Positions 8,597 to 33,146 of a DNA stretch of 64,000 nt are shown one piece after another. Location of the stretch: NCBI GenBank assembly GCA_044892505.1, contig CM097883.1:448632001-448696000 (forward strand), read 5' to 3'. Position 1 is the first letter of the stretch. Each line of letters opens with the position of its first letter. The DNA comes from Schmidtea nova. Taxonomy: Eukaryota. Under the pieces are notes generated by a model. That model was given only the letters and a program-made list of their open reading frames with translations. It was not told the origin of the DNA and did no database searches. The position numbers and the translations under genes are program-made.

Positions 8597-8671
8597 CTCT
8601 TTTATACATTGGTCAATACGGCTTGACACTTTTTATTTTACATAATTTATTTACACTTGGTTTTCGCACAT

Positions 8672-9733: not shown

Positions 9734-9845
9734 TTCTATAATTACAGATAAAAAGAATATTTAATCAGTTTTTATTTTTATTGTTTTTGATTATTTGTTA
9801 TTTCATATTGTTCTATACAGTTTATTTACATGGTTACTTCCTTCA

Positions 9846-11222: not shown

Positions 11223-11314
11223 TTTCTACAATAATATATACATTCGACTTGTCATTTATTTTTGGTTTTTCTTGTTTTTATTTTTACATATTTACAGTTT
11301 TCCGCTTTATTTAT

Positions 11315-11671: not shown

Positions 11672-11795
11672 TTCTAAATTATATACATCATTTACTTTGT
11701 TTTCCTAGCTTTTTACAATTTTTATAATATCGATACCCATACTATTACGGTAATGCTTTGTTATTTACACTATTATTTACAGTCATAATCCGCCC

Positions 11796-14700
11796 CTATA
11801 CCATCATTATCGTCTTTTCCTCGTATCGTTCTTCATCTTCTATTTGTTTCCAGAATTCTTTACCTTTCGTTCTTCTTTGGAATTCTTGCTGTATCTCTTC
11901 TGGTATTTCTATTCTTTGCTTCATAATTTTAATATCTGGCCATTGTATGGCTGTCGCTTTGTTTCTCTTTCTGTATCTCCAATATATTATCATGCTTGTC
12001 GTCATTATCCCATATGCTATTAATATTCCTATACTGATTAATCCTATTACTGTTTTTCCACGGTTTGTTTCTCCTTTATTCTGGTTCGCTTTTATCTCAT
12101 TTTGGGTTTGAGCCTCTGGCTTCCTCTCTTTCTGTATTTGACTCTTAACTTTGTTCATTACTTCTTGTGTAGACCAATGGCGATTTAGTAGTTGTTTGAC
12201 GTTATTTTCTTTTGTTCGGTTTTCCACGTTTCCTGGTTCGATCTGCTGTTGTAGTTTCTCTGAGATCTGATATAATCCGCATTCTGGGTTTTCTGAACCT
12301 TTACTGGTGAAGGTACATATCGCGTATGTCCTATTTACTTCCATTTTCTTTAATTCGACTTTTTCTTTATTCTTTATTTCTTTACAGTGGGTTAGGTTGT
12401 CTTCTTCCCCTTCTGGGTTATGCTTTGTCCAACATATTCCTTTAACTGTCTGATCGAGTCCTGTTAATGTCAGAGTTCTTTCTGTCTTTGTTAATTCTTC
12501 TTCATCGAATTTCAGTATTTCTCCTTTTTGGAATGTCTTGCAATGCTCTATTCCCTCTTGGATTCCTCTCTCCCAGATACATATACTTCCTTCTTCATTC
12601 ATTTGTATTTCTTGTATTTCGATTTCCTTGTTTGTTTGTGATTCGTCGCTTGTCTGTACTTGGTATTCCTTCCTTGGTTCGTTGTATGTTCCCCAGCATA
12701 GTTTGTTGCTACTTGTTTTCCTTATTGTTATGGCCATTTGTTCTATTATTATTCCTTTATCGATGCGTTTGGACATTGCTAGTATTAATGCTATGCATAC
12801 GCACTCCTGTTGGGGTGATATTCTTTCTCTCGTTTTATTGGTGCTTCTCTCCCCTTCTCTTGGTTTGTTCGTTGTATTTTCCTTCTGAGTTGCTGGTCGA
12901 TCTATTGTGGTTTTGATCTCTTTCTTTGTTGGTTTTACTTTGTACCACTCAAGTCTGGGCGTTTCATTTTTTTGACATACGACTGTCTTAGGTAGCCCTG
13001 ACTTCTTTTCCTTTCCTATTATACATATCCGATGCATGATTCCTCTGTCCATCCCTTCTATTCGTACTATATCCTGGTCGGATTTTCTGATTATGCATTT
13101 TAGTGGGTTATCTTTCCCAATTGGTTCATCCTCTCTATTCCAGCATATTTTCTCGACCTCCTGGACATTTACTATTTTTATCCCTGTTTGTAGGTTTGTT
13201 GCTTCTTCCCTATTGATTAATGTCAATATTATTGTTAGACCCAACCATCTTGAACTCTGCGATAGGCTTCTGGTTCGCCTTTCATATTTTTTCTCTTCGC
13301 CTTTAGTCTCTTTCGTTTCCTTGTCTTTGTTGTTTATTCCTAGTTTTCCGCTTTTTGCTTCTTTCTCTTTTGGTTCTTCTCGTGCTTTTTCTTCTAGCAT
13401 TTCTACTCCATGGCTTGTATTATCTATATTTAGCCATTGGGTTGTTGATTTTCTTGGGCTTATCTTGCGTATCCATATAGCTGATAACGCGATTATTACT
13501 GGTATGGTTGCTGTTAATATTCCTAAGCCGATTAGTTCTTTAATTTCTTTATTCTCGTCTGTTTGTATAGGTTCGCTTTGGTTGAACATTATTCCGTATT
13601 GTCCCTTTAGTTTTCTCATTAATTGTTCTCGTTCCTCTTGCTTTCTTTTGACTTCTTTGATAACTTCTTCAGGTGTCCATTTTGCTTGAGGGTCGGTTAT
13701 TGTTTTTTCTGCGTCCATTTGTTCATTCGTTTGGCTTAGTTCCCTGAATTCGAGTTTCCTTGTTATTCCTTTCGATGTTGCGTTCGCTGGTGTATAGTAG
13801 GTTTCGCATCTTTCTTGTTGGTTTCCTAGTGCGTCCGTCTTTTCTATTGTACATACTTCATACTCGCTATTAAATTGTAGTTTTTCGATCTTGATTTCTT
13901 TATTTGTTTTTCTGCACTCTCTTGATTGTCTTCTTATATGTTTCTGAACTATTATCCAACATATCTCTAATGTTTTATTCTCTATTTTCCATAATGTCAG
14001 AGTTGCTGATGTCTTTTTCTCGGATTTTGTCGTAACTTCTTGGCTTATCGGTTGTTTATTGTTTTTAAAGGTAGTGGTGTACTTCGGTTTCCCTTTGTTT
14101 CGTTGTCTTCTTTTATTTTTTCGTGTTAACGTTTTAGTTCTGGTTCCGGATGAAGTGGTGTATATTCCGCATTCTAGGTCGTTTATCGTTATCTGATCAT
14201 TTTTCTTTACCAGACATATTTCGTAAGTTTGTTTACTTTCTAAACCTTTTATTTGTATCGTCGTTGCTCCTGTGCTTGTTCGACATTGTGGTGTCTTTCT
14301 TTCATTCGTTTCTTTTTCGTACTTCCTCCAGCATACTCCTTTCACATTTGGTTCTATTTCTTTTATTTCTAATGTTATGTTCAGTTTCTGCTTGATTTGT
14401 TTATTTCTCTTCCTCGTTCTCCTTCGGAACTTTATTACCTCTCCAGGTTGGAATGTTTTACATTTTGTGGTACCTTTCTTGTTCCTCTCTTTCTCAAGTA
14501 GGCATAGTTTGTACGTCTTGTCTGCTCTTACTTCGGATACTTTAATTACTTTGTTTGTTGTGGGTTTTCGACTTTTCCTTATTTCATTTACGCCGATTTC
14601 TTCGTCATTCCTCGCCCAACATTTTATGTTAGTGTTCTGTGTATCTTCCACTTCTGTTATTGTCATAGTTTCAATTTCTATTCCTTCCTCTAATCGTTTT

Positions 14701-17700
14701 ATTATTATTAGTATGAGTGCTAAGCATAATACTTCCATTTGGTAAGACACTCTTTCGGTTTCGTTTGTGGCAATTCTTGTTTCGGGCCTCTCTATTGTAA
14801 TTCGTAGGGTTGGTGTTGTTTGCTTATCTATTGCCTGGGGTTTTTTATTTTCTGTTCTCTGTGTCTCTGTTCTTCCACATTTTCCGATGATGTAATCTCC
14901 TTTGGGTGACTGTTGTATTGTCATGGCTGCTTTAGGTGTTTGGTATTTTGCACATGCGATTGTGTTGTGTGATCTTGGATGTTTTTGTTTCCTAACGGTG
15001 CATATTTTGTACCAGGTGTCTAGATCTAGGTCGTTGATCTCTATGATCTCTTGCTCGTGTTTTGAGATTCTGCAATCCATCGGGCTATTTTGTTCCGTGA
15101 TTTTGTCCTTTTTTGACCAACATACTCGTTCGATTCCTTTTGCGTTTTTTATTTGTATTATTGCCCTTTCTTCACATGTCATTCCTTGACTTGGGTTAAT
15201 TAACGTTAAAATCACTGTTAATAATAGTAATTCTGGTTTGAAGAATGGTTTTATGGTTGATTTATAACTTGTTCTTTGGGTGTCATTTTTATCTCCTTGG
15301 TCGTTTTTTCCTTGTTCTCCATCTCCATCTCTTTGTTTTTCGTCTTCACTTTTCTTTTCTTCTTTGTCTCGTTTCTTGTCTTTTCTCTCGTTTTCTTCTT
15401 TATCGGGTGGTTCGTGATCGTTCGAATTTTCTGAGTTGTTACCGTCGTCACTATCTGTATTGTCATCTCCCCCTGGCTCGTCGAAAATGTCGTCCTCGAC
15501 ATTGATTTCTTCTATCAATTTTGCATATGCCAATGTCGTTAGATTACTTGCCTCAAATTCTTGTGTTTCTACTTGCTCCGGTATTGCTTTGTTAGTGGAT
15601 TTATGTTCCAAGATTTCCTTTTTGGCCTTGATCCAATTGTTGATGTATGTCTTCATCAATTCTTTCCATTTGCCTGTGTATTTTTCTTCTTTCGGGCTGT
15701 TTGTGATTCTTAGATCCTTTCTTTCCATAAACATCTTCAATATCTCTGGCCATTTATACGTTATTAAGGCACTTCTTATACACCAGTTTTGGTTATGTTC
15801 TGTAAACTTATTAATCCTGAATGCTGGTTCGTTAGTATTAGGATTTATCCACGTAAGTATTGATTCTGTTAGTTCGACGTTGTTCATCATTGCTAGTACA
15901 CTGGGTTTCTTGACCGTATCAGTTAGGTGATCTATTTCTTCCTGATTTGGGACGGTTTTTAGGAAGTTGACCATTTCCCAATTATGTGTTAGTAACGCTA
16001 CATCCAAAATTGAATTATCTTTATCTGTTTTACCTGTAAGTCCTGCACCTGCTTTGTATAGTTCCTCTAATACCTTTGTTTTCGTTTTGGCCCTTGCTGC
16101 AAATACCATAAGTGTATCTCCTTTCTCGTCTATCATATTCATATTGCTTCCGCAATTTAGCATTACTCTTGCAATCTCCATTACTTTTCTATCTTTGCCA
16201 TTTCGTAGAGCTCTATGTGGGGGCATTATTCCGTCCTTTGGTAGTAAAAATGTTACTGGCATCTCCTTTTTTATTATTACTATGTCGTTTCCGTTGTAAG
16301 TTCCTTTTGCGTATGCGTGTACTTTTTCAACTAATGCACCGAGTATTTCCAGTGCATGTTTACTATTCTCGAATTCTGGTAACAATTCTTTTGCTTTTTC
16401 TTGTATCGCATCTAGTCTAGCTTGGTATGGTGCTTCTGCTTTAAAGAGTGGTGTGAGTTTCTTGTTACTTTCTCTTTCTTTTTTCTCCAAAACCTGTTTG
16501 CATTTTTCGGGATGGTTTAAGATTTTCACTAATTCCTCGTACTCACTTACTATTGTCTGGTATTTCTCGTTAAAATTGTTTATGTCTTTGTATGTTATTA
16601 GTTTGTCAAATGGTTTCGCACACCATTTCCTAATCTTGTTGAATAAGGCTTCCTTCTCTTTATCGAATTTGTATTCTTCTTCATTCTTTGTGATGTTTAT
16701 GTTTCCTCTGTCTAATAAGGTTAGTAATGTCTTCTGATCACAAGTAAATTTCAGAAGATATCTTAACAACGCGTTTTGTCCTTCGCTGTATACTTCGTTT
16801 ATGTCTAAGACCCATGTATCATCTTCTGGTCGTTTCCATTTGACTAACTTACGGATCGTGTTGCATTTACCAATTTTGATTGCCTCTTTGATAATGTCTC
16901 CTTTAACTAGTTCGTCTATCTCCCAAGTGGAGTTAACTATTATGTATTTCAGCATTGGTTGGTGAGAACTCCATATTACGTGATTTAGCACTGTTTTGTC
17001 CTCTCTATCTCGTTCTGTCCAACTGAAATGGGCTTTTATCAATAAATCTACCATTTCTTTATCTGCTTGGTGGATTGCGGCTGTCATTAATGGAGTTTCT
17101 TGTTCACGATTCCCTACGTCCAAGTTTTGGTTTGTTTCTTTTGCGATTTTTAGGAATTCTTTTGCTCTTTCAATGTTTTTACACTCTATCGCATTATGTA
17201 AGGCTGGTTGTCCTCCTACATCTTTCAATAAGAGTATTTCAGGGATTTTTTCCAATAATTCAGAAATAATTGGTTCGGTTGGTAATCCTTGCGCGTAACG
17301 GCTAATCATATGTCTAATATCCCTTGATATGCCTGCTTCGTCTCTAACATGCCATCTTCCCATTATTTCTCTCGCCTTCAATATGATCTCTTTGTTTCTG
17401 ATTTCTTTTTGCCTTATTTCTGCTTTGTCGTCTTCAGTTACATTAGCTCTGAGCATATTTATCCTGGCTGTTTGTGATCTAGTTATTATTCGATTTTCTG
17501 GTGTTGTAGTTATCGTTTTAGGCACCTTTTTACATCTGCAGGTGTTTACATATATGGGTCGTATTAAGGGTCGATTTATTAGCTTAACTTTGACATTATT
17601 GTCCTTTTTGTATATAATTTCATAAGGTCCTCTTCCAGGTCTTTGGAGTTTCTTAACTGTTCCTGGTATTATTTCGGGAGTTTCTATTATCACCCAATCT

Positions 17701-20700
17701 CCTGGTTTTAGATCGTTCGCTTTAACATTTTTCTTCTGATCGTGTAAGTCCTTATAACTTTCCTGATAAAATTTAATGTTGAGTTCTGCCGTTTTCCATA
17801 TTTCCTGCATTCTTTCTTTGAATTTGGTTATGTAGTCGTCGTCTTCCATATATTGCGATAGTGGTGGCTGATACTCTAAATCTATGGGCATGTTGCATTC
17901 TCTTCCATACATAAGTTGAAATGGGCTTAGTTTTGTTGCTGCATGTATCGACATTCGGTATGCCATTAAACATAATTTTATGTATTCGTCCCAATCAGTT
18001 TGATGTCTGCTGACGTAATTTGATAACATTCTAATCAATGTACCATTGAATCGCTCCGTTTGTCCATTCGTTTGCGGGTGATATGGTGAAGTTCTCAATT
18101 TTGCTATTCTGAAATAGTTTGTTACCTCGTTCAATAGCTCGCTCATAAAATTAGTTCCTTGGTCTGTGAGAATTTGTTTTGGGGTTCCGTATCTGCAACA
18201 TATTTCTTCCACTAAAATTTTTGCTACAGTTTTTGCTTTTTGGTCTTGCATGGCAAATGCTTCCGGGAATTTTGTCAGATAATCTGTTATCACTAATATA
18301 TAAATATTTCCGTTTAGACTTTCCGGTAATGGTCCTATTACGTCCATTGCTATAGTTGTCATTGGCTCTGCTGGTATCGGCATTGGTTGTAGCGGGTTCT
18401 TCCATTTCTTCCCACTATCCTTTCTGGTTGCGCAAGTTAGACAATTTTTAATCCATTCTTTTATATCTTCTTCCATTGTTCGCCAATAATATTTTTGTCT
18501 CATACGATTTATTGTCTTCTTCTCGGACATATGGCCTCCTAATTTCCCATCATGGTACTGGATCATTATCTCTTTCCTTCTGTTTTCCGGTAAACACATC
18601 AATCTCTTTTCTCCGTCTTGTATTAACAACCATCCTTTATTTATTATGTAGCGATGTTGATATTTTCCTATATGTTCCTTTAATTCCTTATTCTCTTTGA
18701 ATACCTCCATGTTTCGAGATGTTAGGAACTCTATGATTTGTCCTAATTCTTTGTCTTCTTGTTGATCTTTCTTAAGCTCGCTAAAATCTAAATCTTCTGC
18801 TATTAATACACAAATTCGTTGTACATCAGGATCGGTTAATTCCGGAAATGTCAGTCTTGACATACAGTCTGCATTCGCATTTGCTCGTCCTGATTTAAAT
18901 TTTATGTCCGGTGAGTACTCCTGTAATTGCATTGCCCATCGCATTAGTCTACTAGATGTTTCCTTGTGCTGTCCTAACCATACAAGCGGTTGGTGATCTG
19001 TTGTTATGCAGATGATGTGTCCCCATAATAAATATTTAAAATGTTTTATTGCTAGTATAATTGCTAATGCTTCTCGCTCGGTTACCGAGTAGTTTTTCTC
19101 ATGCTTTTTGAATGTCCGGCTATAATATCCGATTACCCGTTCTTTTCCTTCATCGTCGTATTGTCCTAATACTGCTCCTGCTGCATATCCGCTTGCATCT
19201 GTTGCAAGTAGGAATGGCTTCTTAAAGTCTGGGTGTACCAATATGGGTGCGGTTATCAATTTATCTCTCAACGTTTCAAAGGCTGTTTGTTGTTCATCTC
19301 CCCATATGAATGATACATCTTTCTTTACCAGTTCCTGTATAGGCTTTGCGATTCCGGCGTAATCTTTTATAAACTTCCTATAATATCCACATAATCCGAG
19401 AAATTCTTGTATTTGGGTTATTGTTTTTGGTACTGGACATTCTTTTACCTTGTCGATGTTTCTAGGATCCGGTTCTTTTCCTTTTGCTGACACTATATGT
19501 CCTAAAAATGTAACCTTTTCTTTTGCCCAGTCACACTTGGATGGCTTGAGTTTTAACTTCCATTGTCTAAGTCTAACGAATACATCTCGAATATCCTGTA
19601 TGTGTTGTTCGAATGTACTAGAGTAAATCAATAAGTCGTCGATGTAGACCATGCACTGCTTTATTCCATGGGTGATGAAATTCATGCATCTCTGAAATGA
19701 TGCTGGTGCGTTCGTTAATCCAAATGGCATCTTTCGAAATTGATATAGGTCTCTACCGATGGTAAAGGCAGTTTTCTCTTTATCTTCTTCCTTCATTTTT
19801 ATTTGCCAATATCCGCTTTTCAGATCTAACGACGTAAAATATGCTGCTCCTTGTAATGTTAGTAGCATCTCGTTGATGTCTGGTAATGGGTAAGTATCTC
19901 GTTTTGTCACTGTATTCAATCTTCGGTAATCTATACAGAATCTCTGTGTTCCGTCTTTCTTCTTCACCATTACCACTGGAAATTGCCAGGGTGAACAACT
20001 TGGTTCGATTACTTCTGCATCCAACATTTTTTTCACTTCTGCTTCTGCTACTGCTTTCTGTGCTTCCGCTAATTTGTACGGCCTTAATGCAATTGGTGTT
20101 TCATCTGTTAATGGTATTGTATGTAGTGTGACATCACATGTTCCTAGATCCAAATCGGATGCTGCAAATATATCCTTATACTCTATCAGGAGTTTTTCTA
20201 ACTGCTTCCTTTGATCCTCATTTAATAATTCACTATCTATATTCCAGGTTGGCTCTTTATCTTTCTCTGCTCCTTCTATTGGTAGTTCGATATCCATCAT
20301 TGGGGTTAGTTTGCCTAATCTTTCGTTTTCGTAGATTATTTTGTCCTCTTCATCGAAGTTTACTATGTTTATTGGGATTTCTCCATCGTCATTTATGTTG
20401 ACTAGTCCTCTTGCCATTGGCAACGCTTTTCTTTTCTCGAATCTTTTACTTGGTTCGAAAATCATATCCCCTTGGATTATTGGATCTATTTTTACATAAC
20501 ATATTTTTTCCTTTCTTGCGGGTATGATCATTTGCTTTGAACTCGTCACTTTAGCTTCTATTGCGCATATCTGCCCTGTGCGATCCCTCAGTCTCATTGT
20601 TCCGAGATCGATTACAATTTCTTTAAATAATGCTGGCATCAAATCTGTTCCGATGATGCAAGGTACGCTTAACGCTGGTATGACTGCTACATACGTATCG

Positions 20701-23700
20701 ATTTCTGTATTTAAGTGGCGTATTTTTACCCACCATCTTCCTGCTACTTCTACAACTTCTTTGCTACATGCAATTACATGGACGTTTGTCCTTTCTATAT
20801 CTCGTCTTTGCTCTTGTGGTATCCATTTGATGTCGATGGCGGAAATGTTTGCTCCAGTGTCGATCATTGCTTCGATTTCTCTTCCGTTAATTTCTATTGT
20901 CGTGGTTAGTACTGGACCTGTGTTTGATGACATTACTGCGATCGTGTGTGTATCTCCTTGTGGATCTACGCTTCTACATCTTCTCATTTTATAATCTTCT
21001 GGTATCATGGGATATACATTTGTCATTGGCATCATTTGCATCGTGCTATTTTTTCCTCCTTGTAGTGGTTCTTGATACATGGTTGGTGGAGGTGCGTAAC
21101 ATTTCCATGCGTCGGCTGGATTCTTTTCGATGTATTGTGGTGCTTGGTTCTTATACACTTGTCCTCCTTTATAGTCGTCATCGTCGTCATCGTCGTCACT
21201 CGAATCATGTTGGGTTTTATATCCTTTCATCCTCTCCCATAAACCTTTTCTTTCTCTCTTGAGCTGTTGTCTTGCTTGTTCGTCATTCATTATCTTTTTA
21301 AATTTTCGTCCCACTTCTTCATCTGTTCCCTTCATTTTTGCTAATATCTTTAGGAGTCTTTTTATTCGGTGGATATCTTTTGAGTGACCGTGTAACACCA
21401 TCGTTTTCGCAAGGAATGGTAAAAATCCTACTACCATTTTCCAATTCACTTTCTTTTCTCTCTTGTAGATATCGAAACATGCTAACATTTGTGTTATTAT
21501 CACTCTGACGATTTGGATTATTAATATGACCCCCAGTATTCCAGCCATCATTTGTCCGAATATCAAGAATCTTCCCCACATTGCTTTCATCATGTTTTCT
21601 GTGGCTTTTTTGAAATGTGCTGGTGACAACAACAGTTCATAATTCGGTCCTTCTCGATAATCCGTTCCTCCCGTTATCGTTACGATATTTGACAATAATG
21701 CTTCTCTTCTCGCTGGGAATAATATATTCTGCCTTGCTGCTTCTAAATCCTTTGGACTATATATTCCATTGTTTGAGACATCCACGTCGCTAAATTGCCT
21801 ATCCTTTGACAACTGCATTAGCTCGAATTCTCTTGGTGCTATCACTTCGGATCTTCCTGGGAACATAACCCATTTACCATCTGGTTTCTGATAAAGCGGT
21901 CCATACGCATTACTACAGTTGAATGGATTTGGTTCAAACCCTGGTGGATTGATGATTCTCGTCACCGGTTGAACGTATCGTACTTTTCCTTTGTAATCGA
22001 TTTCTAACTCATTTGTACAGGTTCCAGGTTTCAACTGTGTTGTTGCTGCTAGCGACGCGTGTGTCTTTTCGCAAATGTATACATACATTGCTTCTCCAAC
22101 CACTCTCCCGAAATGTCCTTCTCTCAGTGGTAATAATGGCATCGCGCTATCTGGATTCGTAATCGCTACGGCCAATTTTGTCTTTAGTATTTCTCGATTC
22201 AGTATACAATCGTTATTGATCAGATCGTAATACACTTTTTGTAATGAGGCTTGTCCTCTATGGAATAGGAAATCCATTTTATTATTCACATACAAGTGTA
22301 GTTTGATATCCATTGTGTCGATTTTGGGTTTCGCATTTGGCACTTCTTGTTTTGACACATATATTCCTGGGTAATTCGTTTCGTATACCGTTGTACTACA
22401 CTTAAGGGTTGCTTTCCCTTTTATGAATCTCATTCCCACATCTTGATTTGTGGTTATCAATACTGTTGGTGTGGCTCTCATCTCTATTCGTTTTTCTCTA
22501 TGATCTGGTTTCAGTTGTCTTTTATTCTCTAAAGCTTCCTTGAGATGCTTTGCTCTAGCTTTGTCGTCATCGTCTTCTTCCTGAAACGTTTTTCCTTGGA
22601 TTTCGTCGAACTTTGCTCCTTGTAGCAGTTGTAACTGACATTCGTTCATCTTTGGTTTGTACACTAATGTTGACATTCCCGTTTGACACATGCTCCTGTC
22701 GATTTTACACATGGATAACGTTTTCATTTCTCCCGTTGTTGGTTCGAAGAATGCTTCGTAGCTTTTTAGTTCGACTATATACGTATCCATTACTACTAGG
22801 TTGGTTGCGGGTACTCCGAATATCGGGTAGGTTTCTCCTTGACAATATCCTTCTCCTCCCGTAATCCGTCCTGCTACATAGTACGTTTGTTGCATCATCA
22901 TTCCTGGCTTTCCTCTTATCTTGATTTTATCTCTTGTTGTTACTTCTCCATGTTTAAACAGTGCTTCGCAGTCTTCTCCTTGTAACACGATTGGTTCTCT
23001 TTCCGTTCCTGGCATGACAATTGCTGAATAATGTCCTCTCCCGCAGTAGAATGCGAATCTCGTCTTCTGCACTTTACATTCATTCACCATTGTCTTTATG
23101 AGTTCTGCTTCTTGATACACGTGGTACCATTGTTCCTTTTTAATCTTTTGCAACTCTACTGGAGTTGCATCTTTGCATTGCTCCGTACCTCTCAATGAAT
23201 ACTTTTCTCCTAACTTCATTTGGTCGCAATCAAACACTTCGAATGCTGTTGCGCTATCGGTGCTAATCATCCATATCAACATCATCATTATTATAGAACT
23301 CAAATTCATTGATGACTTCGCGTGTCCTGTTCCTGCTTGTTCTTTTTCTAACTCTTCCAATATTTTTTCGAATTTCTTTTTCATATTCTTCGCTTGCGTT
23401 TTCTTCTGGTTAGTTTTTATAAATGTTTCCCATCCTCCTTTGTTAATGACGTATGGTTCTATTTCTCTTGCTATAATTTTTGCGGTATTTTTTATATGTC
23501 TCTCTAATGCAGTGGGTTTTGGTCGACCTCTACTCAATGTCAACAAATTGTATATCGTGTATGCAATGGCTATTACGTATTTGTTATCCGTTTCCGCTCC
23601 TTCTGTCAGTTTCTTTATTAACATAGTGGTTCCTTGCCAGTCTAAATGGTTTGACTTCGTCTTTTCTTTTATGAATTCCGGTAAGATGGGTGCGATTGCG

Positions 23701-26700
23701 CTGTGTAGTGACTTCGCCTTTTCGCTTATCTCGGTTATACGCCAGTATTTTCTTAATTCCGGATCAATTATTGCCAATATTTCCATTATTGTTTTCGATA
23801 TCCATTCCTCCCCTTGACATATTGGTGTTGTCTCTTTTTCTTTCATCTCCGCAATTTTATTTAGTTTCCTTAAACATAATTCCCATTGATCTTGTCTCTT
23901 TTCGTCTTTATTTCTTACAACTACAGTTGTTGGGTCTGTCTTAGGTCTACCTCTAGGTCGTTTATCCATTCCTGTACCTGTTTCCACAAACCTTGTTGCC
24001 CGTCCTGTTTCTTCCGTAACATCTCTTGGTTCGTTAGCTCTTTCCTCTAACCATCTTTCCATTTCTTGCGTTAATTGTACGTTTTCGACATTCGCTCCTC
24101 TCGTTTCGTCTTCTGTCAAATCGTTTACTTCTTCTATTATTATTTCTTCTTCGACTTCTGTTTCTCCGGTGTTGGTTACTTGTATTGTCGTAGGTAATTC
24201 TTGTATTCTTTCGAAAATGTTATCGTCTTTTTCCTTTGTTAATTCGGTTAATTCTTCTATCATATCGTCGCTATCCGTTAAAATTTCGTCCACGTCGTAT
24301 GGTTGTGGTGGAGTCCTTTCTCTATTCCCTCTGGGTGTTGTCTCAGATCGTTTCGAACTTGTCCCTGGTGTTAGTACTGATTTCATCGGACTCGGCGTAC
24401 TTATACTTCCGTGTGGTTTACGGTTTTCTTCTTTATGTTTCAATGGTTGACCTGCTATTGCTTCTACTGTCAAGGTATTCATGAGATCTAGTTGTGCTGG
24501 CGTTATTCCAATTTCCAAACTGTTATCTAATGATCGTCCTTGGTGTTGTAAATGGAATGGTGGTTCGTATCTCAATTTCTTTTTAATATCTCGAATTTTT
24601 TCTGCTATTCCTACCCACAACTCTTCCTTATCCTTGTTTGGGTATATTATTCTTAAATGTACTTTCTGTGGAATTTCCTGCGAGAATTCTTGGTTTCTCC
24701 ATTTCCTAATTACATGGTCTAGTTGTTCCGGGCACCACTCGTTAACTCTTTTATATTCCGCGATTGCTTTTGCTACTTTACGCAAGCATGTTATATCTTC
24801 CCCATTTACCACGAAAAAATCTGCGAGACCCTTTATTAATTTTCTCTTACCGTGCGCATTAGTTTTTAATATTTCGACGAATTCTTCCGTTTTTTGCTTT
24901 TCCCTTTCTAACCACATGGCTGCTGTTTCTGGTCCATCTAGGTCTATTGGCGTAGCTTTCCTTGTCACCATGCAAACCCTTCCTATCTCTGGTTCGCAGT
25001 CATCTTCAATTCCTCTTTTATATTCTTCTTCATATTCCCCTTCTTTTGGTTCCCAACATTTTCCTTTCTCGTTCCATTGTTTTTCTACGGGTGTTCGTAT
25101 TCGTCTGTTGAGATTGAGTTCTTCTAATACATTTTCCCACTCTGGCCAAATTCGCCAATTTCGATAAATTTCTACTATTTGTTGTAATTTACGCACAACT
25201 TCTTTCCGTCGTTCCCGTTCTCTTTTCTCATCTTTAGCAGTTTCTCTTGGTGTATCGTCCATTCTGCTAACGTGGATTGTTTGGTGATTATCCCATATAC
25301 CGATTTTATATAATCGTCTCTCATCGTGATCCCATAATACATGTTCGTTGTATTGTATGATTATGTCGTCTTCCCATTCGTCTTCTGGTTCTCTTTGCAC
25401 TAGTGTCTCGTTGATGACATTTATTAATTCTTTAATGGTGCAATCCGCTACCACTTCAATTTCTTTGGTGTCTTCATTAGGCAATTCTACTGAAATTTTT
25501 AGATCTGTTATTTTCCCTTGTCTGAACATTGTTTTTCCCATTTTTGCGATTAATTTGTCGTGTGAGATCTGTGACCATCTCGTGTGGCTTGTGTCACGTA
25601 TGCACTCAATACATCGTTTCAATTTCTCGTATTCGCTTCTCATTAACTCTTTTCTATGTTTTTTGACTTGTGGTATGATTTGTTCTATCAGGGAATTTAG
25701 ATTCTTTCGCAAAACTCGTTCTTTCTCGTATTCTAACCGTGGTTTTATTCTCCGTTCGAAGCACGCGTTTGCTTCCCTTGCAACTTCTTGTAGGTTCTCT
25801 TCTTCTTTTTCATCACATATTGATAACAGAGTTATTTCTCCTGGCCATATACCTGTTTCTACTAAGTGCGTTCTTTTCTTTACGAGTCTATTCTGCGAAT
25901 AGATGAATTTGTTTTTGTATGAGCTCCCTAGTCTATCCTCTACCCATCTGTAGATATCGTCTGTAAATGGAGTTTTGATCCAGATTCTTGGTGTAGATGT
26001 ATTTATTATTATTGAGATGGTGTAATTGAGGAGTGGTTCCTCTATTAATTTCCCTACGTATCGATTCAACATGTCTACCTCCCGGTCTTGTAACCATTCT
26101 TTGTAGTTCATTTGTAGTAATGCTTTCATGAATTTCCGATATTGTTTCTTGTCCATGAACTCTTCGTTATATATTACCTCTAGCGAGTTATCTAATAATT
26201 TCTGGATTTCATCTACTTTTATCTGTGTAGGTTCTGAGGTCTTTATTACTTCTCTCTCTTTATTTTCGTCTTCGGATTCGTTTAATATGTCTCCTGCTAG
26301 GCTACTGATGTCACTATCTTCTTCCTCATCGGAAAACTCTCTGGTGGTATTTCTTAGCATATTAATATGTGCTATTTGGTTCGTTTCTCCTTGTATATTC
26401 TCCGTTGGTTCTGGTTCGTTTTTGTCAATTTCTGGTGTTGGTTCACTCTTGTCCTCTATTACTTCGACTTTTTCCAATTTCTTTCCCAACTCGTCAATCT
26501 CTTTTAAACGTCTTCTTATCATTTTTCCTTCAAATATTCGCCGGATTCGGGTTTCGTGACGTATTGGTGGTGGAATTTCTTCTGGTTCTATTTCTTTAAT
26601 TCTCATCACATTTCTTTTTGTTTCTACTACTCCCATGTTTTCCCATATATCCGTTAATTTCAATTTTACTGATGGTGCACCCTCTATTTGTAAGAACGCT

Positions 26701-28745
26701 TCTCTGGGCAGCTTTGTTACTCCTGGAATCATCTGGTTTACTTTGTTGAATAGTATTTCCACCTTTTCTTTTGCGTTATATTGGAATCGAAACATATGGT
26801 CGTTGGGCATGATTACCATCATTCCTTTTTTCCAAATTTTTCTTCTCTCTTCCTGGTTTATCTCGGTTTCCTCTCCCTTTTCTGCTTCTTTTTCTACTTC
26901 TTCATCTTTTTGTACTATTTCTTTTCGACTTTCGTTGTCGGCTGGATTCGGGTTTATCGAATTCATTTCCAGTGTGGTTTCTTTCTCGCGAGTGTCTGTT
27001 TGGTTTGTTGCTCTTAGCATGTTAATTCTTAGAGGTTGTCGTTCTCTTTCTTGCTGTTTTTGTTCATCCTCTCTTTGTATTCTTGCCCATTCCTGAGCGT
27101 GTCGTGCTTGACTTTCTCGATTCAATCGTTCGTTTTCGCTTTCTATTTTTCTCATCATGCTAATTTGCTGTTGATTGGTTTGCGGATTTCCTCTCGTCGT
27201 ATTGTTTATAAGTTCCGTCAATCTTTGGACTTCTTGCATTAAATGTATTTCTTTGGGGGTGGTTTTGTTCTGATTATTGTTATTATTGACTTGTTGGTTC
27301 CCATAATCTGGTCGGTTTACGGTATTTGCTTGATTTCCGTAATTTGGTCGGTTCCCATTACTCTGCCAGTTTCCTCGTTGATTACTTTTTTGTCCGCAAT
27401 TTCTTGAATAGTGGCCAGGTCGTCCGCAATTAAAACAGATTATTGTAGAACATCTGCTTTCCGAGTGTCCTTTAACTCCACATTTCCCGCAATTCAAATT
27501 TTGATAGCATTCTTGCTGCCAGTGTCCCAACTTTCCACATGTTTTACATTGTTTTGTTTGTCCTTGAGGGTTGTAGTTGTTTTGGTTTCCAAAGTTTTGC
27601 ACTTTATTTCCTTCATTCCTTCGTTGAGGGGGTGGTCGGTTTAATTGTTGCGAATTTGGAATATGATTGTTGAGATTTACTTCTGGTTCTGTTTGCGCTG
27701 TGTCCATGGCTAAATAAATTCTGCCTTCGCTTCCTATCATATGCAATTCAAATCGGTTAGCTGTTTCTAACGCTTGATCTATGGTTTTGCATCCTTGGCA
27801 TCCAACTTGTGCTCTTATGTCGGGTCTTCTTAGTCCTCCTATGAAGATAGCTGCCATTAACTCCTCGTTTATTGGACCTCCATCCTTGAATACCGATTTT
27901 GCTAATTTTTTCAGTTCGCTCGCGTATACCGCATTAGATTCATTCATCTTTTGTTTCCTCATTGAAAATTCTATGAATGCCTCGCTTAGCACTTTATTTA
28001 TTCCAAATGTTTGTTGGAAAAAATCCTTTATCGCTGTCCAGCTTGTAGGTGGATTGGTACCATTTTTTGCTTCCAAATATAGGTCCAATGCACTATCTTT
28101 CAAGTATAACTGTATTCTGCTTACCGTTGTTTCAGCTTTCCATTTGCATACTTCCACGAATATGCCAAATTCTTTTAAAAAGGTTTCTAATTTACTCGCA
28201 TCTCCGTTGAACGGTTCTCCTGAAAATTTATCCTTTATTTCTTCTCTTGGTTCACCCATTTCAATTCCGCTGTCTTGAGTTATTTTACTTTCGTTTCCTC
28301 TTGTTTCTAGTTCGTTGTTATGTTCGTCTTCCGTTTTACTCGAGCTTGAATCGCTTTCTGTTTCTCTTATTCCTTCGTTATCTGATATTATACTTTCGTT
28401 ATCACTCGCGTTGATTTCTATCTCTGGTTCTACCTCGTTTTCTACTTCTTCGATATTATCGTTGTTAGTTTCGTCGCTCTCTGTTTCACTTGCTTGGTTC
28501 TCCTTGGGTTCGGCTTGGTTTTCTTTGTTACTTGAGCTGTTGCTTATTATTGACAATTTATCGTTCTCGGTAATCGATTTATCTCTTATTATTTTCCTCG
28601 ATTTACTCCCTTGTGGGTTATCTTTGCCGGCTTTCTGCTTTTTTGTTGATTTTGTTGTAGTACTAGTTTTGTCTTTTTTATTACTGTTGCTATCGACTTT
28701 CTTTTCCGTTGGCTTTACTACGACACTCTTTGCTCCTTTTCTCAA
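11796..28745 (-). CDS. Giant Gag-Env-Pol-accessory polyprotein (5649 codons, no internal stop or frameshift)
   Basis: Single open frame with all motifs listed below. The track start is TTG; first in-frame ATG is at 28259; an in-frame TAG lies at 28781-28779. Confidence 0.95.
   Translation of the reverse strand: [5649 protein letters not shown]
11979..13250 (-). other. Polyprotein module: second internal-signal/FN3-like/TM membrane protein (about 3 FN3-like repeats)
   Basis: Signal-like [18 protein letters not shown]; repeats of CW...I.I.......Y.[28 protein letters not shown]. Confidence 0.65.
13471..15245 (-). other. Polyprotein module: first internal-signal/FN3-like/TM membrane protein (about 4 FN3-like repeats)
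   Basis: Signal-like [17 protein letters not shown]; VCW...[15 protein letters not shown], VCW...[15 protein letters not shown], ICW...[37 protein letters not shown]. Confidence 0.65.
15720..17235 (-). other. Polyprotein module: two blocks of ankyrin repeats C-terminal to integrase
   Basis: [50 protein letters not shown] match the G.TPLH.A ankyrin pattern with ~33-aa spacing. Confidence 0.85.
17530..18580 (-). other. Polyprotein module: integrase
   Basis: HHCC zinc finger ([10 protein letters not shown]...CLTC), DDE core ([21 protein letters not shown]), GPY motif (GRGPYEII). Confidence 0.95.
18850..20100 (-). other. Polyprotein module: reverse transcriptase and RNase H
   Basis: [40 protein letters not shown], YIDD (19646-19635), [22 protein letters not shown]. 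Confidence 0.97.
20590..20900 (-). other. Polyprotein module: aspartic protease
   Basis: [12 protein letters not shown] (DTG at 20861-20853) and CIIGTD. Confidence 0.92.
21400..23309 (-). other. Polyprotein module: signal peptide + chuvirus-like (class III, gB-like) glycoprotein + TM
   Basis: [22 protein letters not shown] then FEVFDC...EQC...[19 protein letters not shown]...GYCQG...TNYP...YVNNK...DCILNREIL...GEAMYVYIC...CTNEL...QPVTRII; the order of cysteines and motifs matches what I recall of chuvirus G; TM at ~21570-21480. Confidence 0.8.
23421..23888 (-). other. Polyprotein module: Bcl-2-like helical domain
   Basis: [20 protein letters not shown] closely parallels the Bcl-xL BH2 region (LEPWIQENGGWDTFVE); BH1 is divergent. 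Confidence 0.55.
27396..28230 (-). other. Polyprotein module: Gag capsid plus three CX2CX4HX4C zinc knuckles
   Basis: [12 protein letters not shown]...[11 protein letters not shown]...W...F; RKQKMNES...Y...L; knuckles [42 protein letters not shown] at 27548-27396. Confidence 0.92.
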
Positions 28746-29361
28746 GGGGATTACTTTTGTATACTCAATTTTCCTGTTCTATCTCTTATCGTTTTTCTGA
28801 TTCTTCTTGCTTGATTGATTGATTTGATTGATTTGTATATCTAAAATACAAAGGTCCTCAACGATACATTATTGTTATCGTCGCGCTTTTATTCCCTTTC
28901 TTTCGGGATTACTTATTACTGGGTTTTCATTATTTCCCAATTCCCAGATTCCCCTTTATTTTTAGTCTATTTAAATTATCTATAGACTGGTCACAATTAT
29001 CTATTTATGTCGTAATAATTATCTATACTTTATCCAATCAATTACTTTTCCCACAGTCTCCCAATTTATTGGTCGCTCGAGCGCTCTAATTCCCTGAGTC
29101 TTTCTGACTCGTTTATCATTATTTTATCATTTCTATTCATTATTCCCTGCTAGCAATTGTTTTTACTTATTCTGCCGGTTGTTCCGGTCAGCCCAAAAAA
29201 TTTTTACTATTCTCCTTGCATGCTTTACTTAAGGTTGCATAATCAGCTTTTCTCGCATTCTCTTAACTACTAGTGCGCACTACTCTAAATCTCGTCGACG
29301 ATTACACTATGGGTCTATATTCCCTCTATTACTATTTATCCGGATATATCTATAGTTCACT

Positions 29362-29585
29362 ATGGCTCTTCCGGCCTCAATTTTATATCTCACATGGCTC
29401 TATTGGCCTCAATTTAATCTCTCAAATGGCTATCTTGGCCTTAATTTAATCTCTCAAATGGCTCTCTTGGCCTCAATTTAATCTCTCAAATGGCTCTCTT
29501 GGCCTTAATTTAATCTCTCAAATGGCTCTCTTGGCCTCAATTTAATCTCTCAAATGGCTCTCTTGGCCTCAATTTAATCTCTCAT
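29362..29585. repeat. Tandem array, 7 x 32 bp, in element leader
   Basis: Unit atggctctcttggcctcaatttaatctctcaa at 29362, 29394 ... 29554. Confidence 0.92.
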
Positions 29586-29624
29586 AACGCCTAGCTAGGT
29601 CATTCAATATGGCTCATTGGCCTC

Positions 29625-29887
29625 AACCCTTTTTTTCAAGGGACAAACCGCTAATAACCCTTTGTTTCAAGGGACAAATCTCCTAACCCTTTGTTTCAAG
29701 GGACAAATCTCCTAACCCTTTGTTTCAAGGGACAAATCTCCTAACCCTTTGTTTCAAGGGACAAATCTCCTAACCCTTTGTTTCAAGGGACAAATCTCCT
29801 AACCCTTTGTTTCAAGGGACAAATCTCTTAACCCTTTGTTTCAAGGGACAAATCTCATAACCCTTTGTTTCAAGGGACAAATCTCCT
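29625..29887. repeat. Tandem array, 9 x 29 bp with internal hairpin, in element leader
   Basis: Unit aaccctttgtttcaagggacaaatctcct; ccctt...aaggg can pair within each unit; first unit divergent. Confidence 0.92.
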
Positions 29888-30363
29888 AAACTTTACTTAA
29901 CCGGTTAATCACAATTCCCTACTTCGCTAGCGATTAAAATTTCTCAGCTGAGTTATAACTACTTCTATGCGAGCTGACTATGCACCTTTTATTCTTTCAA
30001 AAATGTCATTTCTCTCTATTCTATCATAACTAATTCCTGATCAGTCTGCTTCAACTTTTTATTTATTTTTCTCTGTGCGCGCTTTACTCCATCAAGATTT
30101 CCCTATCTCTCTCCCCAACCAAAATATACAAAAAGATCGCGTTGGTCCATTAATGCAGGATGTGGTGATCAATCACATCACAAAAACTTTCCAACATTTG
30201 CGATGGGCCCCTTTCTATACACCTTGAATAAGTTGATCAACCGTACCTCCCAATGGATTCCTATCGGACTACTTTGCAGTAGCTCAAAAGTTATTTATAT
30301 ATGACAATTGTACCCATGATTTCATCATTAATAAACCAATAAAGTTCCATTCAAATTTATTTA

Positions 30364-30825
30364 TTATAAATATACAATAATTTTATCGTCTATCCTCAGG
30401 TTGCACATAGGACATAGGTCGCACTTGCTGGCACATATCTTACAAAAACGAAAATGTCCGCAAGGTAAAAACATAATTTGTATCTCGCTATCCCCACATA
30501 TATAGCACTGTCGGTATTTTTTCGCTGCTTCTACCCCTTGCGCCCTCCATCGATTGTATGTTGAGGTTAACTGTTGTTCTATTTGCCTGCACTTAATATT
30601 TAATTCTGCATTTTCTAATCGTGTTCTGTACCATTTGTAGCGGGTCTCTATGTCGATTTTACTTATTCTTTCTGTTATCTTTATTAATTCATCTGTTTCC
30701 TCAGTCTGTGTTGTGGGTTCTTGAAATTCAATTTCTCTAAATCGGTTTATTTCCTTCCCAATCGTTTCTAATGTTTCGCTTTCTGTGTTGAGGAATTCTT
30801 CGATTTCTTTCAGTTTTTCCTCCAT
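30364..30825 (-). CDS. Accessory ORF (153 aa): coiled coil plus C-terminal IAP/MDM2-type RING finger
   Basis: CYICGDSEIQIMFLPCGHFRFCKICASKCDLCPMCNLRIDDKIIVYL at the extreme C-terminus; ATG after tttattcAG-taa. Confidence 0.88.
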   Translation of the reverse strand: MEEKLKEIEEFLNTESETLETIGKEINRFREIEFQEPTTQTEETDELIKITERISKIDIETRYKWYRTRLENAELNIKCRQIEQQLTSTYNRWRAQGVEAAKKYRQCYICGDSEIQIMFLPCGHFRFCKICASKCDLCPMCNLRIDDKIIVYL

Positions 30826-31129
30826 TTACTGAATAAATAATCGTTTTAACTCTGTTATTTTTATCGTTTTTAAGGTAGTAATATGTTTCGTTTTGTATCT
30901 TTTAATATTTAACTCCCCCCGTGTTTCTGAAAATTGTCGTCCCGACAAATTATGCATGCATTTTAATTTTTAAATTCACTTTTGTTCACTGCCGTGTTGT
31001 TTATTTAATTTTTATACAATAATTTACATTTAATTATAACCTTTCTGTTTTTTATTAAATTAATTGACCCGAGCATTTTAAACCTCTCTGCAGATTTTAC
31101 GTTTACATTTTTCCGATAAAACGAAGTTG

Positions 31130-31147
31130 ATCCCGGCTGAGCCCCCA
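31130..31147 (-). promoter_or_regulatory. Primer binding site, tRNA-Pro type
   Basis: Minus strand TGGGGGCTCAGCCGGGAT matches the classical tRNA-Pro PBS TGGGGGCTCGTCCGGGAT at 16/18; begins 6 nt after the 5' LTR end. Confidence 0.85.
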
Positions 31148-31621
31148 AATTTATGCTGGGTTCATGGAGGGGTTAGATGAAAAATGCTCTAACAATGACT
31201 AGGGATCCCTCATCCATGATCATGCATAAAATTGCAATTTTACACTCAAGCGCCCTTGATTATTTCCCTATATAATCAAGTTGGTGATGCGCAGGGTGGT
31301 TAAACAATGATGGGCAGGTGAGCACTATTGCTAGTACTACTCCCCATTTATGTTTACGGGTCCATTGCTGCCGTTAGAAGGACTTACGCTTTAATCATCC
31401 CCTTAGGTATTCCGTGTTAATCTTTCAGAAAATTCATTTTTATCATTACTCAGTCTGCGAGAAGTATTTCAACGAATGCTCGCTTAATTATTTAATTATC
31501 TCTATTCGATATTTTGTAAACTGAATTTATACTTTTGTTCTATCTTTATTTAATCATTGGTAAAGTTAATTAAATCAATTTAAATGAACAATGAGATTCT
31601 TAAGCCAATGCAACAATTTAT

Positions 31622-32218
31622 TTAATTTTTAATGAGTTCGGTAAAAACTCCCGCCGGAGGAAAAATCTCCGTCAATAATGCTTCCTCAGTCATCTGATGT
31701 AGACCATCGACTTGGATTTGTAATTGCTGGGCAAATAATTTTCTCTGTCTCCGCCGTTTCTGCCCAATGCGCTTGCGTTTCTGGTGCGCAGTCGCCGATG
31801 AAGTGGTTGAATTGGCTGGAGGAGCTGTCTCATTCCGACTTTCAATTAAATCGGGGACATCCGTTCCAATGGAGTTTACTGTCTTCTTTTCTGCCGTCCA
31901 AGCTTGGTACGTAATCGGACGGATTTGCTCTCTGAGTTCCTTCTCGATGTATGAGGCAGTTACGGAATGGAGGCATTTTCGGAGTTCTATCTTTGTAGCC
32001 TCCCATTCCATTTGGTAATCGGCTGCAGTCTGTTGGGCGCGCTCGGTTTTACTGATTTGCTCCTTCATTCGGGCCGGAGCAAACCAGCTTTTGCGCAAAT
32101 ATGCAATCTGTGCCTCTGCTTTGATCAATTGTGCCTTGAGGAGACCCAATTCCTTGTCCTGGGCTCTCCGAATCCGCCACATCTTTTCCAATTCTTTCTG
32201 CATCAAATCTGGGTTCAT
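31622..32218 (-). CDS. LTR-encoded ORF L2 (198 aa); 5' LTR copy
   Basis: Identical translation to 5218-5814. Confidence 0.75.
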   Translation of the reverse strand: MNPDLMQKELEKMWRIRRAQDKELGLLKAQLIKAEAQIAYLRKSWFAPARMKEQISKTERAQQTAADYQMEWEATKIELRKCLHSVTASYIEKELREQIRPITYQAWTAEKKTVNSIGTDVPDLIESRNETAPPANSTTSSATAHQKRKRIGQKRRRQRKLFAQQLQIQVDGLHQMTEEALLTEIFPPAGVFTELIKN

Positions 32219-32402
32219 TCTATAATTTATTTAGGATATTTACTCTATGATTAAATGATGTGAAAAATGAAACTGATCATAGGGTTATTTGGTTACGAAT
32301 ATGAATTATTAAAAACACAATACCAAAACTCAAAACAACATAACAAAAACACTGCTGAATATTAATATTTAATCACAATTTGAAAGATTTGACAATCAGT
32401 TC

Positions 32403-32882
32403 TTATCTCCGAAACAGGCTATGTAATTCGCTGTTAATCGGTTTCTGACGGAGACGAGCCCAAGAGAATGAGGGTTGTCCTTTCTGGCACTCCTTGCCGA
32501 ACGGTTTTCGTGGCAGGAATTCGTGTAGGCCTAGTTGGCATAGTTCCCGACGAGGGATATGCCCCCAATAAATTACACGGCTTGTCTGTCCATCGGTGTC
32601 CTTGATCAGTACGACAAGTCGGCCAAATTTGTTTGAGTACGGCCTTTGAGAAATCGGCCAGTTCGGTCCTCCTCGATAGAGTATTTGGTCGTGCCCTCCT
32701 GTCCATATCGAGAACGGGCATTTTCGGCCAAACCCCTGTCGCCACTTATACATTTGGCAGTTGAGGGTTCGCAATATCGATGCTGGTAGATCCTTGAGCT
32801 GCGAGATATTTTCATTCCGCAGATTCCCTTGCTCCATATTCCGTAGTTGCGTTAATTGATTTGTAAGTTCAGCTGTCGACAT
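32403..32882 (-). CDS. LTR-encoded ORF L1 (159-aa version); 5' LTR copy
   Basis: As 5999-6439 plus TGGHDQILYRGGP. Confidence 0.65.
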   Translation of the reverse strand: MSTAELTNQLTQLRNMEQGNLRNENISQLKDLPASILRTLNCQMYKWRQGFGRKCPFSIWTGGHDQILYRGGPNWPISQRPYSNKFGRLVVLIKDTDGQTSRVIYWGHIPRRELCQLGLHEFLPRKPFGKECQKGQPSFSWARLRQKPINSELHSLFRR

Positions 32883-33043
32883 CTATATTACATTTATTGG
32901 ATATAAATATGAGTTAAGGGGGAAATTCGTTGATAATTTAATTATGTTGCATATAATCACAACAGTTAAAAAATGAGATTAATTTTATTTCTCTCCGCCG
33001 TGATCTACCACGGTCGGAATAAAGAGTTCATAATTAGTCCTGT

Positions 33044-33146
33044 GCTATATACAGCATTCAGGAATTATCAAATTTAATCAAGATTTCCGCGCTATATACA
33101 GCGATCGGAGAATAACTTGGGAAACCGCATCATATACGACGATCGG
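33044..33146 (-). promoter_or_regulatory. Three repeated TATATA-containing motifs in the LTR, candidate promoter (also at ~6601-6703)
   Basis: gctatatacagc at 33044 and 33091, degenerate gcatcatatacgacgatcgg at 33127; 160-260 nt upstream of the L1 ATG. The promoter role is inference. Confidence 0.35.

What the first reader, a model, noticed from the sequence alone, without database searches (positions are those of the whole stretch)
23421..23888. Bcl-2-like domain at the end of the Gag extension, anchored by the Env signal peptide
A ~150-aa helical segment ends in EPYVINKGGWETF, a near copy of the BH2 motif. It is followed ~40 aa later by the hydrophobic glycoprotein signal sequence, which after cleavage could act as the C-terminal membrane anchor typical of Bcl-2 proteins. 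BH1 lacks NWGR, as in some divergent viral Bcl-2 proteins. An anti-apoptotic domain inside a retrotransposon polyprotein would be unusual.
Basis: partly seen in the sequence, partly recalled or inferred. Interest (0 to 1): 0.8.

Follow-up and report, generated by a model that had tools for sequence, protein, structure and literature searches.

The report
Bcl-2 domain in giant retrotransposon polyprotein
A giant virus-like jumping gene, likely of a planarian flatworm, carries a divergent relative of the cell-death regulator Bcl-2 just before its envelope protein, where it likely helps keep host cells alive and may be held on a membrane by the envelope's signal peptide; the Bcl-2 cargo itself is already published for these "Burro" elements.

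Summary
The segment lies in the 5,660-aa polyprotein of a young 29.5-kb LTR retroelement (Gag, Bcl-2-like, signal, Env, Pol). Alone it hits neither Pfam Bcl-2 nor any solved Bcl-2 sequence. Four sister families in the same genome hit Pfam Bcl-2 at the same slot, a profile built from them alone picks out exactly this segment, and a modest model (pLDDT 58) matches Bcl-2 folds in the top 25 of 48,161 chains. The domain is under purifying selection. A BCL2-like motif before Env is already described for planarian Burro elements (PMC6431247), and this scan reported the same on another genome. The anchor idea fits the topology but is untested: the hydrophobic core is short (15 aa), 42 residues past BH2, and is kept in 5 of 6 relatives that have no detectable Bcl-2 domain. 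BH1 has lost the conserved Gly and has Lys for Arg, so anti-apoptotic BH3 binding is likely but open. New member of a known kind; moderate interest.

The parts
4750..34267 (-). Whole LTR retroelement, 29,518 bp, Burro-type; TG...CA ends, 4-bp target duplication AAAG
31154..34267 (-). 5' LTR (3,114 bp)
   Evidence: 100% over 1,511 bp and 99.94% over 1,566 bp to the 3' LTR, one 39-bp indel
4750..7824 (-). 3' LTR (3,075 bp)
11796..28778 (-). Single 5,660-aa frame: Gag with CCHC knuckles, extension, Bcl-2-like domain, signal segment, Env, protease, RT, RNase H, integrase, ankyrins, Fn3-like/TM units
   Evidence: first Met at aa 174
25245..25517 (-). Possible ubiquitin-like domain (weak)
   Evidence: Pfam Ubiquitin_4 top hit, E 0.058, under cut-off; no significant hit with a sister-family profile
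23940..23960 (-). AT-hook-like RPRGRPK motif just upstream of the domain; RGRP also in family B, P0007, P0009, P0010
   Evidence: sequence; (label recalled)
23832..23894 (-). Extra N-terminal helix (alpha0) outside the Bcl-2 core, with an LxxIA pattern shared with families B and C
   Evidence: BH3 likeness not significant
23415..23813 (-). Bcl-2-fold core (aa 1656-1788), eight predicted helices
23559..23621 (-). BH1 region; TDNK in the NWGR column
23421..23459 (-). BH2 motif EPYVINKGGWETF
23304..23414 (-). Charged linker between the core and the hydrophobic segment; variable in length and sequence between families
23244..23303 (-). Internal signal sequence of Env (15 uncharged residues, then DSATA); candidate tail anchor after predicted cleavage
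   Evidence: cleavage site inferred from the small-x-small rule (recalled), no predictor run
21489..23243 (-). Env ectodomain and transmembrane helix (Monjiviricetes/gB-type fusion glycoprotein)
30364..30825 (-). Accessory RING-finger ORF upstream of the polyprotein
   Evidence: zf-C3HC4_3 E 2e-11
9846..11225 (-). Accessory TRAF-like ORF (zf-TRAF plus MATH) downstream of the polyprotein
   Evidence: MATH_2 E 1e-20, zf-TRAF E 3e-07

Best explanation
The segment is a divergent Bcl-2-family domain, kept by selection, at the end of the Gag part of a Burro-type retroelement polyprotein; it likely works as a viral-type cell-death inhibitor that binds host Bak/Bax-type BH3 helices, and it is predicted to be left on the cytosolic face of the ER membrane when signal peptidase cuts Env away. 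Shown: homology, position, conservation. Predicted from a medium-confidence model: the fold. Inferred: (1) the hydrophobic segment inserts as an internal signal, N-terminus in the cytosol; (2) cleavage before FEVFDC leaves Gag-extension-Bcl-2 ending in that segment, the topology of a tail anchor; (3) the element's protease or an intramembrane protease may later free the domain; (4) the domain delays death of the cell in which particles are made. My odds: fold 0.93, membrane tether at least transiently 0.55, anti-apoptotic BH3 binding 0.5.
For: Sister families B and C pass the Pfam Bcl-2 cut-off (33.6 and 35.1 bits against 31.4; a second C copy 30.4), D and E hit at E 2e-4 and 8e-4. Their profile, window excluded, finds PDB Bcl-xL at E 1e-7 and window aa 1640-1788 at E 1.7e-5 as the only significant hit among 598 six-frame ORFs. 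Model from 10 retroelement rows only: all 44 listed Foldseek PDB rows are Bcl-2-family entries; ranks 1-25 of 48,161 chains are Bcl-2 folds, Z 9.3-6.2, best rows rmsd 3.4-4.0 over 118-126 residues, first outsider Z 6.0; 5 of the 6 named rows in the viral top 10 carry Bcl-2 or BALF1 names. Shared variants in 45 of 45 compared copies: 54 synonymous, 11 non-synonymous in the core. A basic residue stands at the BH1 Arg position in 7 of 9 families. The segment is the first hydrophobic run of the polyprotein. Nearly all apoptosis-inhibiting viral Bcl-2 proteins have a membrane anchor (PMC5691641, passage). The element also carries RING, TRAF and ankyrin cargo.
Against: No Foldseek match reaches E 0.001 (best 0.029), the model has pLDDT 58 and pTM 0.50 with weak helices 1-3, and Z near 9 is within the range the tool warns of for helical bundles. 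The BH1 Gly is kept in 1 of 9 families and the window has Lys for Arg, whereas the GR pair is very strongly conserved and needed for BH3 binding in most family members (PMC9609553 and PMC7719400, passages; variola F1L lacks the canonical salt bridge). Several poxviral Bcl-2 folds do not bind pro-apoptotic proteins (PMC5691641 section 8). The hydrophobic core is 15 residues and lies 27-59 residues after BH2 across families; 5 of 6 full-length relatives keep it with no detectable Bcl-2 domain, so its presence is explained by Env alone. One library hit (P0009) ends 12 residues after the domain with no such segment, though it may be cut short. An ER-inserted signal would not target mitochondria, the chief site of viral Bcl-2 action.
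Confidence: 0.45

Rival explanations
1. Real Bcl-2 fold used as a non-apoptotic signalling adaptor, like vaccinia A52, B14 or K7, working with the element's TRAF, RING and ankyrin cargo on host immune or ubiquitin pathways.
For: BH1 Gly lost in 8 of 9 families; precedent in PMC5691641 section 8; TRAF-like and RING ORFs in the same element.
Against: The model ranks closer to BH3-binding members (Z 9.3-8.3) than to A52 (5.9) or N1L (5.6); BH2 and a basic BH1 residue are kept.
Confidence: 0.25
2. Structural role: the signal segment tethers Gag to the membrane that holds Env, and the Bcl-2 fold serves as a membrane-proximal, matrix-like spacer in particle assembly.
For: Fixed position directly before the signal segment in five families of G000, in P0007 and in 6 of 16 library hits; strong purifying selection.
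Against: 5 of 6 full-length relatives lack a detectable domain there, so assembly does not need it; the linker is variable.
Confidence: 0.15
3. The extra N-terminal helix is a BH3-like latch that fills the domain's own groove, or is an exposed BH3 that makes the module pro-death, switched by protease cleavage.
For: A helix with an LxxIA pattern precedes the core in families A, B and C, the only LxxIA in the A and B polyproteins; it lies outside the aligned fold; the host Bak-like BH3 exon aligns best onto it in 3 of 9 families; 58% and 54% identity in D/E and B/C against 19-29% for neighbouring linkers.
Against: Not significant: best single case 23 of 1,000 shuffles among nine tests, profile 149 of 1,550; the BH3 Asp is absent in all; D and E have a large residue at the small position.
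Confidence: 0.1
4. The GGW match is a coincidence in a generic helical stretch.
For: No direct Pfam, PDB-sequence or Atlas hit; the single-sequence model (pLDDT 44) matched nothing.
Against: Sister-family profile hit with and without BH2, profile-profile match to host Bcl-2 exons at 94.6%, family-specific fold hits.
Confidence: 0.03

Closest known systems
Burro / GYPSM1 giant Ty3/gypsy LTR retroelements of dugesiid planarians (Jurka 2007; Grohme 2018, both seen only as described in PMC6431247 section 7, read in full)
   Same: About 30 kb with long LTRs; one polyprotein near 5,000 aa; Gag with CCHC knuckles, BCL2-like motif, Env in frame between BCL2 and protease, ankyrins, MATH/TRAF cargo.
   Different: 5,660-aa frame; MATH/TRAF sits in a separate downstream ORF; no BIR hit in the element's long ORFs scanned; ankyrins follow the integrase; the Bcl-2 domain is too divergent for a direct Pfam hit. 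The section read does not discuss a signal-peptide anchor, the BH1 changes or selection. Direct sequence comparison to Burro-1 to -4 was not possible.
GAG-ENV-POL HSV/gB-type errantiviruses of Platyhelminthes, Nematoda and Bryozoa (PMC13524379, passages)
   Same: Order Gag-Env-Pol; ectodomain flanked by a signal peptide and a transmembrane helix, or by two transmembrane helices.
   Different: 'Bcl', 'Burro' and 'apoptosis' occur 0 times in that main text; supplements not read.
Viral Bcl-2 proteins of large DNA viruses (KsBcl-2, BHRF1, A179L, F1L, M11L, ORFV125)
   Same: Fold, sequence divergence with altered BH1, C-terminal hydrophobic segment.
   Different: Those are stand-alone genes with their own tail anchors, chiefly mitochondrial; here the domain is inside a polyprotein, its only hydrophobic tail is the Env signal, and both Gly and Arg of BH1 are replaced.
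Hepatitis C virus core and flavivirus capsid anchored by the signal peptide of the next glycoprotein (recalled, no call)
   Same: An internal signal sequence left as the C-terminal anchor of the upstream cytosolic protein.
   Different: There the anchor is shown and then removed by signal peptide peptidase or the viral protease; here neither step is tested.

Membership tests
Bcl-2 family (fold level) | Eight-helix bundle around a central alpha5 | tested here: met
   Predicted only, pLDDT 58: eight helices after alpha0; ranks 1-25 of 48,161 are Bcl-2 folds over model residues 31-172; all 44 listed Foldseek rows, best E 0.029.
Bcl-2 family (fold level) | Sequence homology over BH1-BH2 | tested here: met
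   Only transitively.
Pfam PF00452 Bcl-2 | Score above the gathering cut-off of 31.4 bits | tested here: not met
   No hit at E up to 10 for the window domain; sisters B and C pass.
Canonical pro-survival Bcl-2 proteins | BH2 motif with GGW | tested here: met
   EPYVINKGGW; Tyr in place of the first Trp.
Canonical pro-survival Bcl-2 proteins | BH1 xxGR | tested here: not met
   TDNK in that column.
Canonical pro-survival Bcl-2 proteins | C-terminal transmembrane anchor of about 20 residues | tested here: inconclusive
   15 uncharged residues, 42 aa after BH2; 19-residue windows are unfavourable on a recalled insertion scale.
Canonical pro-survival Bcl-2 proteins | Binds BH3 helices and blocks Bak/Bax | not testable with these tools
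   Needs a binding or rescue assay.
Burro / GYPSM1 elements | Giant LTR element near 30 kb, multi-copy | tested here: met
   29,518 bp; 150 of 150 scored places, out of 1,015 candidates, match the full domain at 94-100%.
Burro / GYPSM1 elements | One polyprotein in the order Gag, BCL2, Env, PR, RT, RH, IN | tested here: met
Burro / GYPSM1 elements | Ankyrin repeats and MATH/TRAF cargo | tested here: met
   Ank_2 E 3e-12; separate TRAF-MATH ORF.
Burro / GYPSM1 elements | Ubiquitin/SUMO-like domain before BCL2 | tested here: inconclusive
   E 0.058; no hit with the sister profile.
Burro / GYPSM1 elements | BIR domain (Burro-1) | tested here: not met
   No BIR hit in the polyprotein or the five accessory ORFs scanned; a RING ORF is present.
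Burro / GYPSM1 elements | RT groups with a named Burro family | not testable with these tools
   Reference Burro sequences were not on hand.

The most novel reading that the evidence does not exclude
A retroelement makes a membrane-anchored, switchable apoptosis regulator out of its polyprotein: the Env signal peptide doubles as the Bcl-2 tail anchor at the ER, and a BH3-like helix in front of the fold latches its own groove until a protease removes it. This would be the first working Bcl-2 of a reverse-transcribing element.
Probability: 0.12. Interest if true: 0.75.

Novelty: new member of a known kind. Interest (0 to 1): 0.38.

Why it matters
Viral Bcl-2 mimics are described from large DNA viruses (PMC5691641, passage). 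A Bcl-2 domain kept under purifying selection in at least five retroelement families of one genome, and in unnamed relatives elsewhere, suggests that these elements manage the survival of their host cells; Burro elements are reported among the most active in planarian stem cells (PMC6884822, passage). The domain's presence was noted in 2018-2019 but, in my searches, I found no structural or functional test. This report adds domain boundaries, fold support, selection evidence and a family series from near-canonical (NWDR) to very divergent (TDNK) that makes the question directly testable.

Tried and rejected
Direct searches with the window domain found nothing useful: PDB sequences (one unrelated hit at E 0.59), Pfam, word-based homologue searches (10: 0 of 308 candidates; 26: 0 of 7,990), ESM Atlas (116, no usable hit), earlier findings by sequence and by place. 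The single-sequence model and its fold search were uninformative. A complex prediction of the core with a host Bak-like BH3 exon was not available: no verdict. No RNA holder was listed; laying two contig sets of unknown kind (103) says nothing on expression or splicing. A BIR-carrying repeat family was followed in the hope of a sixth Bcl-2 family: only a short fragment in 1 of the 13 loci searched, not a Gag-Bcl-2-Env element. Homology of alpha0 to the host BH3 exon was not significant. Grohme 2018 was not held, so its text and supplements, which may annotate this family or the anchor, were not seen. Searches for adintovirus Bcl-2, for retrotransposon + Bcl-2-like + polyprotein + signal peptide and for a BH1 Gly mutant paper (122) returned 0 papers.
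Full report
Setting. The window holds a 29,518-bp LTR retroelement on the minus strand (4750-34267) with 3.1-kb LTRs that are identical but for one substitution-level difference and a 39-bp indel, and a 4-bp target duplication, so it is a young insertion. One stop-free frame of 5,660 aa (11796-28778) carries CCHC knuckles, a Monjiviricetes-type fusion glycoprotein, protease, RT, RNase H, integrase and ankyrins. The finding is aa 1631-1786, directly before the glycoprotein. In G000, 150 of 150 scored places (of 1,015 candidates) match the whole domain at 94-100% identity, 8 of them with a stop inside. The host is likely a dugesiid planarian, inferred from the layout described below.

Observation. 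The motif alone would not carry the claim: the segment hits no Pfam family at E up to 10, no Bcl-2 sequence in the PDB, and a single-sequence model was poor (pLDDT 44) and matched nothing.

Homology. A Pfam Bcl-2 search of G000 returned host genes and many hits inside frames of about 3,000 aa. These are two other retroelement families, B and C; a search with the Env family gave two more, D and E. B, C and D were scanned as long frames and show Gag, Bcl-2, Env, PR, RT, RH and IN in that order; for E only the part up to Env was fetched. RT identity to the window is 47-50%, Env 37-38%, the Bcl-2 core 21-26%. B and C pass the Pfam cut-off (33.6, 35.1 bits; a second C copy 30.4), D and E hit at E 2e-4 and 8e-4. 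A profile of B-E alone finds Bcl-xL in the PDB at E 1e-7 and, among 598 six-frame ORFs of the window, only aa 1640-1788 (E 1.7e-5; 29.4 bits against at most 9.5 in 1,976 scored shuffles; without BH2 13.9 against at most 12.4). Profile-profile comparison with five host Bcl-2 exons gives 94.6%. Outside G000, the profile finds 16 proteins at E up to 0.001 among 1.84 billion: 6 are followed by a hydrophobic segment and the Env start, 1 is a Gag-knuckle protein that ends 12 residues after the domain, 6 look like cellular Bcl-2 proteins and 3 are short pieces that I could not assign.

Fold. A model from 10 retroelement rows, no cellular sequences, has pLDDT 58 and pTM 0.50, with nine helices. All 44 listed Foldseek PDB rows are Bcl-2-family entries, though none reaches E 0.001 (best 0.029). 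In an independent alignment to 48,161 chains, ranks 1-25 are Bcl-2 folds (BOK and KsBcl-2 Z 9.3, rmsd 3.6-3.7 over 118-126 residues; schistosome BCL-2 Z 9.1), the first outsider scores 6.0, and the match covers model residues 31-172. The scores are modest and the alignment includes rows chosen for their Bcl-2 hit, so the strength lies in the specificity and in agreement with the sequence evidence. The first helix (aa 1629-1649) is outside the fold.

Selection. Against the window copy, 45 of 45 fetched copies (29 top hits and 16 hand-picked more distant ones) show 54 shared synonymous and 11 shared non-synonymous variants in the core (ratio per site 0.05; Env 0.03; upstream extension 0.10; linker 0.13). 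These copies were found by protein likeness to the domain, which biases the core's ratio down. Between families, free of that bias, the core keeps 48% (D/E) and 44% (B/C) identity with pN 0.29-0.32 against pS 0.73-0.77, while flanking linkers fall to 19-29%.

Anchor. The hydrophobic run is the first in the window's polyprotein and is followed by a small-x-small site in all five families, so cleavage would leave Gag-extension-Bcl-2 ending in it, with the domain in the cytosol. This is inference; no signal predictor was available. Against a dedicated anchor: the run is 14-19 uncharged residues (15 here), the distance from BH2 is 27-59 residues, and of six full-length Gag-Env-Pol relatives only P0007 has a significant Bcl-2 hit while all six keep the segment. 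The segment is first a signal for Env; any anchoring is a by-product that may be transient.

Function. The basic residue of BH1 is kept in 7 of 9 families, the Gly in 1 of 9. Passages of PMC9609553 and PMC7719400 describe the GR pair as very strongly conserved and key to BH3 binding, with variola F1L as an exception; section 8 of PMC5691641 lists poxviral Bcl-2 folds that act on NF-kB instead. I therefore put anti-apoptotic BH3 binding at about even odds and commit to it as the single most likely role. The extra helix has an LxxIA pattern in A, B and C, but its likeness to a host BH3 exon is not significant.

Prior knowledge. PMC6431247 (section 7 read in full) describes Burro elements of planarians with a BCL2-like motif and an in-frame Env between BCL2 and protease, and calls the role in apoptosis worthy of experimental confirmation. 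PMC13524379 (passages) covers GAG-ENV-POL gB-type elements without mentioning Bcl-2 in its main text. Grohme 2018 and Jurka 2007 were not seen, and no supplements were read; they may bear on the novelty of the anchor idea. This scan reported the same domain and reading on another genome (e1-8073723), looked up after my own reading was formed.

Verdict. Real, divergent, selected Bcl-2-fold domain in a new Burro-type family; presence known, function and anchor untested. Novelty: new member of a known kind. Interest 0.38.

Noticed in passing
window 11799-15299 (-), polyprotein aa about 4500-5600: After integrase and ankyrins come two units of signal-like segment, Fn3-like repeats and transmembrane helix: likely a second, duplicated surface protein. 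Families B, C and D also have a signal-like segment after the integrase.
   Followed up: partly
window 30364-30825, 9846-11225, 8672-9760, 8027-8632 (-): Accessory ORFs of the element: RING finger, TRAF-like protein, coiled-coil protein, small membrane protein.
   Followed up: partly
window 5218-5826 and 31622-32230 (-): An identical 202-aa ORF lies inside both LTRs; no Pfam hit.
   Followed up: no
window 29330-29944: Two adjacent tandem arrays (32-nt and 29-nt units) in the leader between the RING ORF and the polyprotein.
   Followed up: no
window about 31133-31153 (-): The stretch next to the 5' LTR looks like a tRNA-Pro primer binding site (likeness recalled, not tested).
   Followed up: no
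L094-L096, L100, L103, L106: A separate, highly repeated family in G000 (1,295 BIR candidates, 150 scored) with ORFs of about 1,050, 490 (TRAF-like by eye) and 399 aa (BIR); no Pol seen in the stretches fetched.
   Followed up: partly
L042, L056, L059, L105: A repeated Bcl-2-like gene that seems to hold an intron, ending PWVQENGQW, distinct from the polyprotein domains.
   Followed up: no
L109:1896-2078 (-), L035, L037: Host Bak-like gene: a BH3 exon with splice sites about 11 kb upstream of a BH1-BH2 exon.
   Followed up: partly
fold search: The top viral structural hit is annotated as Bcl2 of a lancelet adintovirus, so another class of mobile element may carry Bcl-2 too; no paper found.
   Followed up: partly
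window 41276-45269, 52737-56708, 58430-59122 (-): Two further, broken gypsy-type elements with RT/RNase H/integrase pieces, and another zf-TRAF ORF.
   Followed up: no
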